Positions 38,357 to 43,462 of a stretch of DNA of 64,000 nt are shown one piece after another (position 1 is the stretch's first letter; every line of letters begins with the position of its first letter). Origin of the DNA: a virus; the IMG/VR virus record IMGVR_UViG_3300020469_000011, positions 1-64,000 of that record. One strand, 5' to 3'. The notes under the pieces were generated by a model that saw only the letters and a list, made by a program, of their open reading frames with translations, was not told the origin of the DNA and made no database searches. A program made the position numbers and the translations under genes.

Positions 38357-41224
38357 ATGTTTAACACATCTAATTTCACACACAGGCACACTGGTCCAAA
38401 TTTAAAAGAACAAAAATACATGTTGGAATTTTTAGGTTGTAAATCTTTAGAAGATTTATTATCACAAACAGTTCCTCATAATATACTAGAAAATAAAAGT
38501 AATCTTGACTTAGATCCAGTTAGTGAAGAAAAAGCACTAGATGAATTAAAATCCATAATAGATAAAAATAAAATATGGAAGAGTTATCTAGGTCAAGGTT
38601 ATTATGGAACGTACCTACCTTCTGTTATTCAAAGAAATCTTTTAGAAAATCCTGGATGGTATACATCATATACACCATATCAAGCTGAGATAGCTCAAGG
38701 TAGACTTGAAGCATTATTAAACTATCAACAGATGGTAATTGATCTTACCGCAATGGATTTAGCAAATGCTTCATTATTAGATGAGGCAACTGCCGCTGCA
38801 GAAGCTATGACTCTTTGCCATCGTCAATCCAAAAAGAAAAGCAACTTATTTTTTGTAGATTCAACAGTACATGAACAAACAATAGAATTATTAAAAACAA
38901 GAGCACAACCTTTAGACATTCAGTTGACTATAGGAAATCTTGAAGACATTATAGAACCCGAAAAATATTTTGGTTGTCTTTTACAGTACCCAAATACGTT
39001 CGGTCACATAGAAGATTGGTCTGATTTGATTGAAAATTTACACTCAGATAATGTACTTGTTTGTATGGCTACAGATTTATTAGCACTTACTATTTTAAAA
39101 CCTCCTGGAGAAATGGGTGCTGATATTGTGTTTGGTAGTAGTCAAAGGTTTGGTGTACCAATGGGTTATGGTGGACCTCATGCTGCATTTTTTGCTATCA
39201 AAGAAAACCTCAAAAGAAGTTTACCTGGTAGATTAATCGGTGTATCAAAAGATAGAAGGGGTAAAACTGCATATAGATTAAGTTTACAAACAAGAGAGCA
39301 GCACATTCGTAGAGAAAAGGCAACAAGTAATATTTGTACAGCACAAGTTCTACTTGCTGTTATTGCTGGCTTTTATGCAGTCTATCACGGACCTAATGGA
39401 TTAAAACAAATTGCTGAAAGAGTTAATACTTTAACAAAACTTTTATATGGTGTATTAACAGATAGTGGATATTCATCTAATGAAAACTTTTTTGATACAC
39501 TGCTGATACATGTAGGAGATAAACAAGATAAAATTATTGGTAAAGCTGAACTATTTGAAGTTAATCTTAGAATTGTTGGAGATAATTTCGTAGGAATAAG
39601 TTTAGATGAAACAACTACTTTAGAAGATGTAATTGATTTGTTTGTAGTTTTTGATATTGATACCCATGAATATAGTAAAGATATAGATAATATCTTATCG
39701 TTGTATAGTGAATCGGGAATTTCTTCTAATTTAAAAAGAGAATCTGAATACTTAACACATCCTGTTTTTCATGATTATCACTCAGAAACTGAGTTGATGA
39801 GATATATGCATAAACTTGAAGACAGAGACCTGGCTTTAAATCGTGCAATGATTCCACTTGGTTCATGTACTATGAAATTAAATAGCACAAGTGAAATGAT
39901 TCCAGTAACATGGCCTACCATTGGATTACTTCATCCTTTTGTACCAATTGATCAGTCAGAAGGTATAAGAGAAATGATGAATCAGTTAGAAGAGTGGTTA
40001 TTAGATTTAACAGGTTTTGATGCAATTAGTATGCAACCCAATTCAGGTGCTCAAGGAGAATATGCAGGTTTATTAGCTATACGTGATTATCATATTAAAA
40101 ATAATGAATCTCATAGAAACATTTGTTTGATACCAAATTCTGCTCATGGAACAAATCCAGCAAGCGCACAAATGTGTGGAATGAAAGTTATAGTGGTTAA
40201 TTGTGATTCAGAAGGTAATGTAGACATAGAAGACCTGACTAAAAAAACAGAAAAACACGCAATGAATTTAAGTGCGTTAATGGTTACTTATCCTAGTACT
40301 CACGGTGTTTTTGAAGAAGAGATTGAGAGTATTTGTAAAATAGTACAAAACAACGGTGGTCAAGTTTATATGGATGGCGCAAATTTAAACGCATTAATAG
40401 GAGTAGCACAACCTGGTAAATTTGGTCCTGATGTCATGCATTTTAATTTACATAAAACATTTTGTATACCTCACGGTGGTGGAGGTCCTGGAATGGGACC
40501 GATAGGAGTTAAAAAACATTTAGAACCTCATTTACCAAATCATCCAATAATAGGTTTAAATGATAAGTGGAGTGGTGGTTCTATTAGTGCTGCACCTTGG
40601 GGAAGTCCAAGTATATTGCCGATTAGTTGGATGTATATCAGAATGATGGGTGGAAAAAATCTTAGAACAGCAAGTCAAGTCAGTATATTAAATGCAAACT
40701 ATGTCGCTGAGAGATTAAGCAAATATTATCCAATATTGTATCGTGGAAAAAATGGAAGACTTGCTCATGAATGTATTATTGATATACGTCCTATAAAAAG
40801 TAGATCAGGTATATCAGAAGAAGACATAGCAAAACGTCTTATGGATTATGGATTTCATGCACCAACAATGAGTTGGCCAGTTCCAGGTACATTAATGATA
40901 GAACCTACCGAAAGTGAATCATTAGTAGAACTAGATAAATTTTGTGATGCTATGTTGAAAATTGGTGAAGAGATACAGAAGGTAGAAAACAATGAATGGA
41001 ATGTAGAAAATAATCCCTTAGTAAATGCTCCACATACACAATCAGATATTGTTGATAAAGAATGGGTTTACAATTATGATTATGAGAGAGAAGTTGCTGT
41101 ATTTCCACTAGAATATATTAAAGATAATAAATTTTGGCCTTTTGTAAATCGTATTGATAATGCATATGGCGATAGAAATTTAGTCTGTTCTTGTCCGTCA
41201 TTAGAAGAATATACGGAGGAATGA
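38357..41224 (+). CDS. gcvP: glycine cleavage system P protein (single-chain glycine decarboxylase)
   Basis: YTPYQAEIAQGRLE, GYGGPHA, REKATSNICTAQ, PLGSCTMKLN, PLP-binding NLHKTFCIPHGGGGPG, EPTESE. Confidence 0.97.
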   Translation: MFNTSNFTHRHTGPNLKEQKYMLEFLGCKSLEDLLSQTVPHNILENKSNLDLDPVSEEKALDELKSIIDKNKIWKSYLGQGYYGTYLPSVIQRNLLENPGWYTSYTPYQAEIAQGRLEALLNYQQMVIDLTAMDLANASLLDEATAAAEAMTLCHRQSKKKSNLFFVDSTVHEQTIELLKTRAQPLDIQLTIGNLEDIIEPEKYFGCLLQYPNTFGHIEDWSDLIENLHSDNVLVCMATDLLALTILKPPGEMGADIVFGSSQRFGVPMGYGGPHAAFFAIKENLKRSLPGRLIGVSKDRRGKTAYRLSLQTREQHIRREKATSNICTAQVLLAVIAGFYAVYHGPNGLKQIAERVNTLTKLLYGVLTDSGYSSNENFFDTLLIHVGDKQDKIIGKAELFEVNLRIVGDNFVGISLDETTTLEDVIDLFVVFDIDTHEYSKDIDNILSLYSESGISSNLKRESEYLTHPVFHDYHSETELMRYMHKLEDRDLALNRAMIPLGSCTMKLNSTSEMIPVTWPTIGLLHPFVPIDQSEGIREMMNQLEEWLLDLTGFDAISMQPNSGAQGEYAGLLAIRDYHIKNNESHRNICLIPNSAHGTNPASAQMCGMKVIVVNCDSEGNVDIEDLTKKTEKHAMNLSALMVTYPSTHGVFEEEIESICKIVQNNGGQVYMDGANLNALIGVAQPGKFGPDVMHFNLHKTFCIPHGGGGPGMGPIGVKKHLEPHLPNHPIIGLNDKWSGGSISAAPWGSPSILPISWMYIRMMGGKNLRTASQVSILNANYVAERLSKYYPILYRGKNGRLAHECIIDIRPIKSRSGISEEDIAKRLMDYGFHAPTMSWPVPGTLMIEPTESESLVELDKFCDAMLKIGEEIQKVENNEWNVENNPLVNAPHTQSDIVDKEWVYNYDYEREVAVFPLEYIKDNKFWPFVNRIDNAYGDRNLVCSCPSLEEYTEE

Positions 41225-41808
41225 TGTTTGTAGCTATTATAATAGGCTATCATAAAAAAGACAGTTTCAATCATCAAGGCATAGTAAAAACTATTACATC
41301 TGAATGTGAAAATAATGGAATAAACTATTGTCTTATAGACTTATATAAAGATAATTTTAATCCAAGCAATCAACCAGATAATAAAATTAAGATATCCCAT
41401 TATCATGAAATCTTATTGAAAGCAACTCATCATATCTATGTAAGTCCTGTTTGGTGGTTTAGGTGTACTAGTATGTTAGAGGGGTTTTTTGATCAAATAT
41501 TCATACCTGGCTTTGCATATAATTTTAAACAAATTACAAAAACATACGGCATTCCAGTTCCAAGATTATCAGATAAGAAAGTGTTAACCTATTTGACACA
41601 TGGTGCGCCCGCATTACCAGTTTATACAATTTATCTCAATAGTGTATGGGGCAGATTACAACTAGGAGTTTTCAGTTTTGTCTATGGGTGGTTCAGACCA
41701 AAAATAAGACAGTTTTTCAGTGTTCCATTTTGCAGTGATGATACTAGAAAAAAGTATATAAAAACAGTGAGAAAGGATATTTTAAAAGAAATTCAAAAAA
41801 GTTCTTGA
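41221..41808 (+). CDS. flavodoxin-fold NAD(P)H dehydrogenase (MdaB/KefF-like)
   Basis: H...SFN, DLY...FNP, SPVWW...MLEGFFD...PGFAY, THGAP. Confidence 0.8.
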   Translation: MMFVAIIIGYHKKDSFNHQGIVKTITSECENNGINYCLIDLYKDNFNPSNQPDNKIKISHYHEILLKATHHIYVSPVWWFRCTSMLEGFFDQIFIPGFAYNFKQITKTYGIPVPRLSDKKVLTYLTHGAPALPVYTIYLNSVWGRLQLGVFSFVYGWFRPKIRQFFSVPFCSDDTRKKYIKTVRKDILKEIQKSS

Positions 41809-42421: not shown

Positions 42422-42611
42422 AAAAGATAAAAAAGCAAACTACAAAAGAAAACTCATGGTAAGACATGCTCTTGACCAAATTGAATATATGAAAAAGACC
42501 GCAAAAGAAAATAAAGAATCTAGCGAAGTGATTGCCAGAAAAGAGGCAAATATGGTAAATTTTTATAAAAGTAAAATCAAAACATTTGATAATGTGCGCA
42601 ATAATCTATGA
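42405..42611 (+). CDS. small basic hypothetical protein
   Basis: GGAG RBS before ATG 42405. Confidence 0.5.
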   Translation: MRTSIKKDKKANYKRKLMVRHALDQIEYMKKTAKENKESSEVIARKEANMVNFYKSKIKTFDNVRNNL

Positions 42612-42970
42612 ATATTCATAGCATACAACTAACAGAAAAAGCATCAAATGCAATAGTTGAATCTATTGTAGAAAGCGGAGAAAATATTAATGATGTCTGT
42701 TTACGTGTCGGTGCTAATAAAGGAGGTTGTTCTGGTTGGAGATGGGAATTAGAAACTGAGCCAGTTGACAATAAAAAAGAAACCGATCTAATTTTTAACA
42801 ATAGAGATATAACAGTTATAGTAGATAAAAATATACTCAACGATGTTATTGGTAGTGTCAAAATAGATTATGATACTAAAAATATGGTTGAGCAAGGATT
42901 TGTTTTCATACGCTCAACTGGCCAACAGTGTGGATGTGGTGAATCTTTCACACCAGTAAATGAAATATAA
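42608..42970 (+). CDS. iscA: A-type Fe-S carrier (IscA/ErpA/HesB family)
   Basis: LTEKA, LRVG..GGCSG, CGCGESF. Confidence 0.9.
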   Translation: MNIHSIQLTEKASNAIVESIVESGENINDVCLRVGANKGGCSGWRWELETEPVDNKKETDLIFNNRDITVIVDKNILNDVIGSVKIDYDTKNMVEQGFVFIRSTGQQCGCGESFTPVNEI

Positions 42971-42976
42971 AACTAT

Positions 42977-43063
42977 GCGGAGGGTTCCGGCCAGCTGTCT
43001 TATACGCAGTCAGTTAAACAGGCCGGCGGTGCTATAGAGGTTCAACTCCTCCTCTCCGTACCA
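42977..43063 (+). ncRNA. atypical tRNA-like RNA, anticodon TAT (Ile-like), non-canonical D-arm
   Basis: 7-bp acceptor GCGGAGG/TCTCCGT + A-CCA; T-loop TTCAACT; anticodon arm GCTGT-CTTATAC-GCAGT; CCGGCC/GGCCGG helix enclosing the anticodon arm. Confidence 0.75.
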
Positions 43064-43081
43064 ACATAATTTATTTATACT

Positions 43082-43462
43082 ATGGATACCGCAAATAATG
43101 ATTTAATCTTCAACAGTGATTTAAAAGAAACTGGTGATGAAGAACCGCAAACTATTTCCTATAACTCTTCCGTTGTAGATGAAATCGTAGAAAATGACCC
43201 ACAATTAACTAAGATTGTAACTCCAGTTGATGACTGGACATATTGGGCAAAATGGGCAGGTAATTTCTTTCTTATTGTAGGAACATTAATAACTAATTTA
43301 GAACTATTTCCATATAACTTTATTTTTAATCTAATTGGATTATCATTGTGGGCAATTGTAGCAGCACAATGGAACGACAGAAGTTTGGTAGTTCTAAATA
43401 TTTTTCTTTTAGGCACAGTTGCAATGACGTTGGCGCAACACATTAAAGAATTTTTCTTATAA
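43082..43462 (+). CDS. membrane protein (DUF6552-like)
   Basis: KWAG..FL..G...PYN......G..LW..V...WNDRSL..LN; three TM segments. Confidence 0.65.
   Translation: MDTANNDLIFNSDLKETGDEEPQTISYNSSVVDEIVENDPQLTKIVTPVDDWTYWAKWAGNFFLIVGTLITNLELFPYNFIFNLIGLSLWAIVAAQWNDRSLVVLNIFLLGTVAMTLAQHIKEFFL

What the first reader, a model, noticed from the sequence alone, without database searches (positions are those of the whole stretch)
42977..43063. tRNA-like RNA with UAU anticodon and an apparently rewired (permuted) D-arm
Seen in sequence: acceptor GCGGAGG (42977-83) pairs with TCTCCGT (43053-59), followed by discriminator A and encoded CCA. The T-arm is AGAGG-TTCAACT-CCTCC. The anticodon arm is GCTGT-CTTATAC-GCAGT (U33, anticodon UAU, A37). 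Only 10 nt (GTTCCGGCCA) lie between acceptor and anticodon arm, so no D hairpin can form. Instead CCGGCC (42987-92) pairs perfectly with GGCCGG (43021-26), which lies AFTER the anticodon arm and is followed by CGGTGCTAT containing a D-loop-like GG. Inference: the D-stem is formed by strands in swapped order, so an L-shape might be rebuilt with a new topology. Established: bacteria normally read AUA with lysidine-modified tRNA-Ile(CAU), and UAU anticodons are rare. This AT-rich phage uses ATA heavily. The RNA sits among canonical tRNAs. It could be a TilS-independent Ile tRNA, a nuclease-resistant tRNA or a decoy for host anticodon nucleases. I cannot exclude that this fold is already catalogued.
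Basis: partly seen in the sequence, partly recalled or inferred. Interest (0 to 1): 0.9.

Follow-up and report, generated by a model that had tools for sequence, protein, structure and literature searches.

The report
Phage isoleucine tRNA with rewired core
This 87-base phage gene encodes a strongly conserved tRNA-like molecule for the isoleucine codon AUA in which the usual D-arm hairpin is replaced by a long-range helix to the variable region, a layout that standard tRNA finders miss and that I found described in no paper.

Summary

**Family.** Pattern scans and a covariance model recovered 31 distinct homologues from uncultured viral and metagenome contigs. None came from cellular genomes or GenBank phage records.

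**Fold.** All four helices are kept by compensatory changes: 99.7% of cells paired, 16 of 23 pairs changed on both sides, 0 of 500 shuffles as good. This includes the long-range 6-bp helix CCGGCC/GGCCGG.

- The acceptor/T split is 8/4, not 7/5.
- A further 3-bp helix (7 bp in the most divergent member) links the two junction strands and looks like a short variable-arm stem.
- The long-range helix is therefore the 5' D-region strand paired with the variable-arm loop.
- It is followed by an invariant CGGU, the same tetraloop as the D-loop of E. coli tRNA-Sec.

**tRNA-like features.** Every member carries CUUAUA (anticodon UAU, U33, A37) and A73. Members lie in tRNA arrays with tRNA-like spacing and follow their neighbours in encoding CCA or not.

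**Codon use.** ATA makes up 41% of this phage's Ile codons and aligns with Ile/Leu/Val in homologues.

**Reading.** Most likely a working AUA-decoding tRNA-Ile (about 0.6). Charging and decoding are untested.

This scan found the same family before, on three other genomes.

The parts
42977..42984 (+). Acceptor stem, 5' strand (8 nt, GCGGAGGG). It pairs with 43052-43059. The first pair is G1.U72.
   Evidence: all 8 pairs are paired in 31 of 31 sequences, and 6 of the 8 show changes on both sides. The eighth pair is an invariant G-C.
42985..42986 (+). Two-base linker (UU) between the acceptor stem and helix H
   Evidence: UU in 23 of 31 sequences; the rest are CU, UC or AU.
42987..42992 (+). Helix H, 5' strand (CCGGCC). 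It stands where a D-stem 5' strand would, but runs straight into the anticodon stem.
   Evidence: 6 bp with 43021-43026, 99.5% of cells paired. Four pairs have changes on both sides, with up to 5 pair types per position. The first two pairs are always C-G.
42993..42993 (+). Single junction base (A), the counterpart of position 26. It may pair with the first base of J2.
   Evidence: this position with J2[1] reads A.C in 14 sequences, G.U in 11, G-C in 5 and C.U in 1. The pairing is inferred.
42994..43010 (+). Anticodon arm: 5-bp stem GCTGT/GCAGT and 7-nt loop CTTATAC. U33 is at 43000, the anticodon TAT at 43001-43003 and A37 at 43004.
   Evidence: the stem is 100% paired and 3 pairs show changes on both sides; the loop is CUUAUA+N in 31 of 31; scans without the anticodon find only UAU members.
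43011..43020 (+). Junction strand J2 (CAGTTAAACA). Bases 43012-43014 (AGT) form the 5' strand of the short helix S2. The AAA run is conserved.
   Evidence: RGY pairs with GCY of J3 in 31 of 31 sequences. The outer pair reads A-U, G-C, or C-G in L030, where the helix is shifted by 1 nt. In the MFE fold of L030 the helix has 7 bp.
43021..43026 (+). Helix H, 3' strand (GGCCGG)
43027..43036 (+). Junction strand J3 (CGGTGCTATA). CGGT (43027-43030) is D-loop-like and holds the GG. GCT (43031-43033) is the 3' strand of S2.
   Evidence: CGGTGC is invariant in 31 of 31; the D-loop of E. coli selC is also CGGT, after a 6-nt D-stem strand.
43037..43051 (+). T arm: 4-bp stem GAGG/CCTC and loop TTCAACT, which matches the canonical T54-Psi55-C56-R57-A58 pattern
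   Evidence: the stem is 99.2% paired and 3 pairs show changes on both sides; the loop is TTCAAYT in 31 of 31.
43052..43059 (+). Acceptor stem, 3' strand (CTCTCCGT)
43060..43063 (+). Discriminator A73 and the encoded CCA end
   Evidence: A73 in 31 of 31 and CCA in 30 of 31; whether CCA is encoded matches the neighbouring tRNA genes.

Best explanation
The gene encodes an elongator tRNA that reads the isoleucine codon AUA with an unmodified-by-lysidine UAU anticodon, built on a non-cloverleaf core.

**Shown.**
- An 8-bp acceptor stem stacks on a 4-bp T stem, giving the usual 12-bp arm. It carries a canonical T loop, A73 and CCA.
- After a 2-nt linker, a 6-nt strand runs through one base straight into a normal 5-bp, 7-nt anticodon arm.
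- The partner of that strand lies after the anticodon arm. It sits inside the loop of a short variable-arm-like helix (S2, 3 bp) and is followed by an invariant CGGU.

**Inferred.**
- Helix H (6 bp) plus the junction base plus the anticodon stem (5 bp) make 12 stacked layers. That equals the canonical count: anticodon stem 5, pair 26:44, D stem 4, and the tertiary pairs 8:14 and 15:48.
- The invariant GG of CGGU lies at the elbow end of H, where G18 and G19 meet the T loop.
- An L-shape of normal size can therefore be rebuilt.
- The RNA would be cut out of the transcript by RNase P and 3' processing like its neighbour tRNAs.
- The host IleRS would charge it (A35, U36, A37, A38 and A73 are present), EF-Tu would carry it, and it would supply AUA decoding to an AT-rich phage without needing TilS.
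For: **Structure.**
- Compensatory changes occur in all four helices across 31 distinct sequences, and RNAalifold predicts the same fold independently.
- S2 pairs in 31 of 31 sequences, with three pair types at its outer pair.
- The split is 8/4: G8-C is invariant, and the alternative fifth T-stem pair forms in only 1 of 31 sequences.
- E. coli selC shares the pattern of 8-bp acceptor, 2-nt linker, 6-nt D strand and CGGU. Rfam's tRNA-Sec model aligns helix H as its D stem.

**tRNA behaviour.**
- CUUAUA and A73 are invariant, and the T loop is TTCAAYT.
- Two scans made without the anticodon return only UAU members.
- In L036 the RNA starts 9 nt after tRNA-Arg, and its CCA abuts base +1 of tRNA-Thr.
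- The one member without CCA lies in an array whose tRNAs also lack CCA. This window's tRNAs all encode CCA.

**Demand for the codon.**
- ATA runs at 31.5 per 1000 codons, 41% of Ile codons. Carrier contigs show 10-46%.
- ATA positions in UvsW align with I/L/V in 73% of cells in five homologues, much like ATT.

**Literature.** 8/4 tRNAs work in E. coli translation (PMC5389517).
Against:
- Some E. coli IleRS identity elements known from the literature are not conserved. Pair 29:41 is U-A or G-C, not C-G. Pair 4:69 varies. There is no 12:23 pair in the usual sense.
- U34 could also read AUG unless it is modified or restrained.
- Mukai et al. judged most allo-tRNA(UAU) species unlikely to be used in translation (PMC5389517, section 16).
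- Several carriers also hold a tRNA(CAU) that looks like tRNA-Ile2, so an AUA decoder may already be present.
- The three-dimensional fit is argued from layer counts only, not modelled.
- Single-sequence MFE folds often prefer other pairings.
Confidence: 0.6

Rival explanations
1. It is a tRNA mimic that is processed like a tRNA but does not decode. It could be a decoy or sponge for a host tRNA-directed nuclease or modification enzyme, or a regulator. The odd core would keep it off the ribosome or away from the synthetase.
For: - The core departs strongly from the cloverleaf.
- Some carriers already have a tRNA-Ile2-like tRNA(CAU).
Against: - All features needed for translation are strictly kept: the 12-bp arm, T loop, A73, CCA, U33, A37 and the 7-nt loop.
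- The stack length matches a normal tRNA (inferred).
- No conserved protein partner, toxin or nuclease gene lies next to it across lineages.
- No known anticodon nuclease is reported to target tRNA-Ile(UAU) (my knowledge, not searched exhaustively).
Confidence: 0.2
2. It is a working tRNA that carries an amino acid other than Ile, so AUA is recoded or read ambiguously during infection.
For: - Incomplete match to the known IleRS identity set.
- Group A members have G1.U72 and group B members C1-G72, both unusual for tRNA-Ile.
- 8/4 allo-tRNAs can insert Ser or Ala (PMC5389517).
Against: - ATA codons of the phage's UvsW align with Ile in 45% and I/L/V in 73% of homologue cells, as ATT does.
- G3-C70 is invariant, so there is no Ala identity.
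- A73 and the lack of a long variable-arm stem argue against SerRS.
- C34, which MetRS needs, is absent.
Confidence: 0.05
3. It is a decayed tRNA pseudogene, or a chance set of complementary segments.
For: Default ARAGORN and Rfam do not call it. The z-score of the single-sequence fold is only -2.2.
Against: - 31 distinct sequences from many contigs keep every helix through double changes.
- 36 columns are invariant, including the loop and junction motifs.
- Covariance-model E-values reach 1e-26.
Confidence: 0.01
4. It is a structured RNA with a job outside translation that merely reuses a tRNA-like end, for example a primer, a processing signal for the flanking mRNAs, or a recombination site.
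For: It lies between protein genes on the same strand: 6 nt after the stop of the upstream gene and 18 nt before the ATG of the downstream gene. T4 tRNA regions are known to hold small stable RNAs of unknown function (my knowledge).
Against: An invariant anticodon loop of exact tRNA form is not needed for such roles. In other phages the RNA sits inside tight tRNA arrays rather than between protein genes, so the flanking genes are not conserved.
Confidence: 0.05

Closest known systems
(8/4) allo-tRNA, especially allo-tRNA(UAU) (Mukai et al. 2017, PMC5389517)
   Same: - The 12-bp acceptor branch is split 8/4.
- A long (6-bp) D-type helix of tRNA-Sec style carries a tetraloop-like element.
- An enlarged variable region is present.
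- UAU is a predominant anticodon.
- Standard finders miss both, and both are picked up weakly by the tRNA-Sec model.
   Different: - Allo-tRNAs have a local D hairpin and a separate long variable-arm hairpin. Here there is no D hairpin, and the D-type helix forms between the 5' strand and the variable-arm loop.
- The discriminator is A73 here, against G73 or U73.
- Allo-tRNAs come from Acidobacteria, Clostridia and Proteobacteria, often near toxin-antitoxin genes. This family comes from marine and freshwater phage contigs, inside tRNA arrays.
Bacterial tRNA-Sec (Rfam RF01852; E. coli selC)
   Same: 8-bp acceptor stem, 2-nt linker, 6-bp D helix and CGGU next to that helix. This is the best Rfam match.
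   Different: - The score of 17.9 bits is far below the 47-bit cut-off.
- The acceptor plus T stack has 12 bp, not 13.
- The anticodon is UAU, not UCA.
- In selC, CGGU closes a local hairpin; here it follows the distal strand.
- There is no long variable-arm stem.
- The discriminator is A73, not G73.
TilS-independent tRNA-Ile(UAU) of Mycoplasma mobile, Bifidobacterium and Neorickettsia, and B. subtilis suppressor mutants
   Same: UAU anticodon with A37, proposed to read AUA as Ile without lysidine.
   Different: Those are ordinary 7/5 cloverleaf tRNAs of cellular genomes.
D-armless mitochondrial tRNAs (for example tRNA-Ser(AGY) and nematode tRNAs; PMC7609411)
   Same: There is no D hairpin, and translation still accepts them.
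   Different: They simply lose the arm, become flexible, and work with co-evolved mitochondrial factors. Here a full-length replacement helix is built from a distant strand, and the RNA must work with ordinary bacterial machinery.
Phage tRNA-Ile(UAU) with a second, GAU-bearing anticodon-like arm
   Same: Phage-borne UAU tRNAs with unusual architecture that finders miss.
   Different: A different design, with an extra hairpin in a 93-102 nt tRNA. No conserved GAU motif occurs in J2 or J3 of the present family.

Membership tests
Canonical tRNA (Rfam RF00005) | Score at or above the 29-bit gathering cut-off | tested here: not met
   no hit at gathering. In the E-value scan the best match in the clan is tRNA-Sec at 17.9 bits.
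Canonical tRNA (Rfam RF00005) | Local D-arm hairpin between position 9 and position 26 | tested here: not met
   Only 9 nt lie between the 8-bp acceptor stem and the anticodon stem. The partner strand lies 3' of the anticodon arm.
Canonical tRNA (Rfam RF00005) | 7-bp acceptor stem and 5-bp T stem | tested here: not met
   The split is 8/4 in nearly all sequences.
Canonical tRNA (Rfam RF00005) | 5-bp anticodon stem, 7-nt loop with U33 and a purine at 37; T loop TTCRANY; discriminator plus CCA | tested here: met
tRNA-Sec (RF01852) | Score at or above 47 bits, UCA anticodon, 13-bp acceptor/T stack | tested here: not met
   17.9 bits. The anticodon is UAU and the stack has 12 bp.
(8/4) allo-tRNA (Mukai 2017) | 12-bp acceptor branch split 8/4 | tested here: met
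(8/4) allo-tRNA (Mukai 2017) | tRNA-Sec-like local D stem-loop (long stem plus tetraloop) | tested here: not met
   The 6-bp helix and CGGU exist, but the two strands are separated by the whole anticodon arm.
(8/4) allo-tRNA (Mukai 2017) | Long variable-arm hairpin and G73 or U73 | tested here: not met
   S2 has only 3 bp (7 in L030) with a 16-nt loop that is itself paired. The discriminator is A73 in 31 of 31.
AUA-decoding tRNA-Ile | Anticodon able to read AUA (UAU or k2C-AU), with A37 for t6A | tested here: met
   The loop is CUUAUA+N in 31 of 31.
AUA-decoding tRNA-Ile | Aminoacylation by IleRS and Ile insertion at AUA | not testable with these tools
   Indirect evidence only: A73, A35, U36, A37 and A38 are present, and ATA behaves as Ile in this phage.
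Expressed, end-matured tRNA | A discrete RNA with a mature 5' end and a CCA 3' end | not testable with these tools
Array spacing in L036 and the CCA convention are consistent with maturation.

The most novel reading that the evidence does not exclude
Bacterial ribosomes, EF-Tu and IleRS accept a natural tRNA whose core is a pseudoknot (5' D-region strand paired with the variable-arm loop) instead of the cloverleaf. Phages also keep this rewiring because it is adaptive. It might give AUA decoding that is independent of TilS and invisible to host enzymes or defence nucleases that recognise the normal D-arm and core.
Probability: 0.25. Interest if true: 0.9.

Novelty: new variant of a known kind. 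Interest (0 to 1): 0.8.

Why it matters
- **A departure from a near-universal structure.** The cloverleaf with a local D hairpin is one of the most conserved structures in biology outside mitochondria. A widespread phage family that rebuilds the D helix from a distant strand, while keeping every part that touches the translation machinery, would show that only the L-shape is required, not its wiring.
- **A new chassis for engineering.** It would be a natural orthogonal-looking scaffold for tRNA engineering.
- **A gap in annotation.** ARAGORN and Rfam miss it, so tRNA counts and codon-usage arguments for marine phages are incomplete.
- **A testable question.** It makes directly testable how phages solve the AUA problem, with lysidine or with a UAU anticodon.

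Tried and rejected
**Searches that found nothing.**
- blastn of the region and of three family members against GenBank phage records: no match.
- An exact 25-mer scan of viral contigs: no match.
- The genome-contig scan gave only 2 chance matches, neither with the fold.
- The 68 extra loci from the anticodon-free pattern all failed the covariance model, so no member with another anticodon was found.
- One copy only in this phage record.
- Literature searches for a D-arm-less or rewired phage tRNA found nothing closer than Mukai 2017.

- The supplement of Mukai 2017 is not held.

**Alternative folds rejected.**
- The window's MFE fold extends helix H with AGCUG/CAGUU and breaks the anticodon stem. 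That pairing is not possible in L001 or in group B.
- The 7/5 reading is rejected because the fifth T-stem pair forms in only 1 of 31 sequences.
- A local hairpin GGGC-GGU-GCCC appears in group B MFE folds. It needs the strand that covaries with helix H, and it fails in L030.

**Other ideas dropped.**
- A dedicated partner protein: the recurrent neighbour ORFs are lineage-specific and match no Pfam family.
- A GAU 'handle' like that of the other phage tRNA(UAU) family: no conserved GAU in J2 or J3.

Full report
**What is in the sequence**

Window 42977-43063 (+) reads, in segments:
- GCGGAGGG, the acceptor 5' strand
- TT, a linker
- CCGGCC, the 5' strand of helix H
- A, a single junction base
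- GCTGT-CTTATAC-GCAGT, the anticodon arm
- CAGTTAAACA, junction strand J2
- GGCCGG, the 3' strand of helix H
- CGGTGCTATA, junction strand J3
- GAGG-TTCAACT-CCTC, the T arm
- CTCTCCGT, the acceptor 3' strand
- A, then CCA

ARAGORN at default settings and Rfam at gathering scores report only the three ordinary tRNAs of the window. With permissive thresholds, Rfam's best match is tRNA-Sec at 17.9 bits (E = 0.36), and that model aligns CCGGCC/GGCCGG as its 6-bp D stem with a 27-nt insertion. Relaxed ARAGORN calls tRNA-Ile(tat) with a poor D-arm and a 25-nt variable loop.

**The genome**

The record is a virus contig of 146.5 kb with 29.6% G+C, estimated 68% complete. Its replication genes are T4-like. 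UvsW is about 43% identical to those of pelagimyophages and T4-like cyanophages. It is therefore a distant marine T4-like myovirus of unknown host.

**Homologues**

- The gene downstream (DUF6552) led to IMG/VR contigs that carry a diverged copy of the RNA at the same place.
- Three pattern scans then gave many loci: viral contigs, one genome per species of bacteria and archaea, and metagenomes.
- After filtering, 31 distinct sequences remain. All score E = 1e-9 to 1e-26 with covariance model R1, which was built from 12 of them.
- The two hits in cellular genomes lack the fold.
- GenBank phage records gave no match with three different members.

Within these collections, the family is confined to uncultured phage contigs.

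**Structure**

*The four main helices.* I parsed each sequence with fixed anchors rather than fitting it to the structure. On that basis all four helices pair in essentially every sequence.
- On the model-based alignment A4, 99.7% of 713 cells form standard pairs and 16 of 23 pairs show changes on both sides.
- No shuffle out of 500 reaches the observed values. Sliding the partner columns drops pairing to about 50%.
- RNAalifold predicts the same structure on its own.

*The long-range helix H.* Its inner positions take several pair types: C-G, U-A, A-U, G-C and U-G at position 3; G-C, U-G and C-G at position 4; and C-G, G-C, U-A, A-U and G-U at position 5. Its first two pairs are always C-G.

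*The 8/4 split.* The eighth acceptor pair (G-C) never varies. The base that would make a fifth T-stem pair is complementary in only 1 of 31 sequences. The arm is therefore 8/4, as in the allo-tRNAs of Mukai et al. (PMC5389517).

*Weakness of single-sequence folding.* MFE folds are heterogeneous and often miss helix H. Covariation carries the case, not thermodynamics.

**A second tertiary helix**

Bases 2-4 of J2 (RGY) are complementary to bases 5-7 of J3 (GCY) in all 31 sequences.
- The outer pair is A-U in one clade and G-C in the others. In the most divergent member, L030, it is C-G, with the helix shifted by one base.
- In L030 this helix extends to 7 bp and dominates the MFE fold.
- The number of independent changes is small, so I rate this helix (S2) probable, not proven.

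S2 starts one base after the anticodon stem and ends three or four bases before the T stem. That is where a variable arm sits.

The simplest description of the whole molecule is then a long-variable-arm type of tRNA that has lost the D hairpin. The loop of its short variable arm holds YAAACA, the six bases that pair with the 5' D-region strand, and an invariant CGGU.

E. coli selC has the same order of parts: an 8-bp acceptor stem, a 2-nt linker, a 6-nt D strand and a CGGU D-loop. The difference is that in selC the next strand folds straight back.

**Fit to an L-shape (inference)**

- The first strand of H continues through a single base into the 5' strand of the anticodon stem. It therefore takes the place of canonical 22-25, and the distal strand takes the place of 10-15.
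- H (6 layers), the junction base and the anticodon stem (5 layers) give 12 layers. This equals the canonical stack of anticodon stem (5), pair 26:44, D stem (4), 8:14 and 15:48.
- The junction base faces J2[1] as A.C, G.U or G-C, like a 26:44 pair.
- The invariant GG follows the elbow end of H, where G18 and G19 meet the T loop.
- I could not model the RNA in three dimensions.

**Signs that it behaves as a tRNA**

- The loop is CUUAUA+N in 31 of 31 sequences. A73 is present in 31 of 31, CCA in 30 of 31, and the T loop is TTCAAYT in 31 of 31.
- The main pattern contained the anticodon, so I ran two scans of viral contigs without it. Every true member found had UAU, and the other 68 pattern hits failed the model.
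- In L036 the RNA lies in a ten-gene tRNA array. It starts 9 nt after tRNA-Arg, and its CCA directly abuts base +1 of tRNA-Thr.
- In L043 it lies between tRNA-Asn and tRNA-Gly and lacks CCA, as do those neighbours.
- In this window the three ordinary tRNAs all encode CCA.
- No protein gene is a constant neighbour.

**Codon usage**

- ATA is the ninth most used codon of this phage: 31.5 per 1000 codons, 41% of Ile codons.
- Carrier contigs have 30-48% G+C, and ATA makes up 10-46% of their Ile codons.
- In UvsW, ATA codons align with Ile in 45% and with I/L/V in 73% of cells in five homologues, much as ATT does. There is no sign of recoding.

**Comparison with what is known**

- Those tRNAs have a local D hairpin, a separate long variable arm and G73 or U73. 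They come from soil and gut bacteria, often near toxin-antitoxin genes, and their authors doubted that most UAU species are used in translation.
- The present family fails these defining features. It may share ancestry with them, which is speculation.

It is also not tRNA-Sec, a canonical tRNA or a mitochondrial D-armless tRNA. Searches of the held literature found no description of this wiring. Papers outside that library could not be checked.

**Earlier notes of this scan**

After I had worked out the fold, a look-up showed that the scan had met the same family on three other genomes, with follow-up reports reaching the same structural reading. One report mentions a neighbouring tRNA-Ile2(CAU). 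Here too a tRNA(CAU) with C4-G69 and C5-G68 lies in the genome, and about 316 nt upstream of the RNA in several carriers. Its identity is not tested. These notes are leads, not evidence.

**Verdict**

- The structured RNA and its rewired topology are real (confidence above 0.95).
- That it is a working AUA-decoding tRNA-Ile is the best-supported reading (about 0.6).
- A non-decoding tRNA mimic is the main rival (about 0.2).
- It is a new variant of a known kind and of high interest.

Noticed in passing
window 38357-41808: A full-length glycine decarboxylase GcvP (955 aa; Pfam GDC-P, E = 6e-193) overlaps a flavodoxin-fold protein in a T4-like phage. This is an unusual auxiliary metabolic gene. 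First readers had already noted it.
   Followed up: partly
G000:C1:105129-105205 (outside the window); also about 316 nt upstream of the RNA in L018, L025, L066, L071 and L107: A tRNA(CAU) that ARAGORN calls Met has C4-G69, C5-G68 and A31-U39. From memory, these resemble tRNA-Ile2, the TilS substrate. If so, these phages carry two different AUA decoders.
   Followed up: partly
G000:C1:101098-101173 (outside the window): A tRNA-Gly with anticodon ACC, that is A34, which is rare in bacteria and phages.
   Followed up: no
L030:1289-1382 (-) and L043:7225-7318 (+): The most divergent family member comes from a 182-kb contig of 48% G+C. It has A1-U72, no encoded CCA, a longer J2, and a 7-bp J2-J3 helix that competes with helix H in the MFE fold.
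   Followed up: partly
window 42608-42970 and 43082-43462: The RNA is wedged between a weak HesB/IscA-like Fe-S protein gene, whose C-terminus reads CGCGESF, and a DUF6552 membrane-protein gene. It lies 6 nt after the stop of the first and 18 nt before the ATG of the second, so it must be cut out of an mRNA.
   Followed up: partly
L036:4999-8048: A small viral contig holds ten canonical tRNAs plus the rewired one in 3 kb. It includes tRNA-Ile(GAU) but no tRNA(CAU).
   Followed up: no
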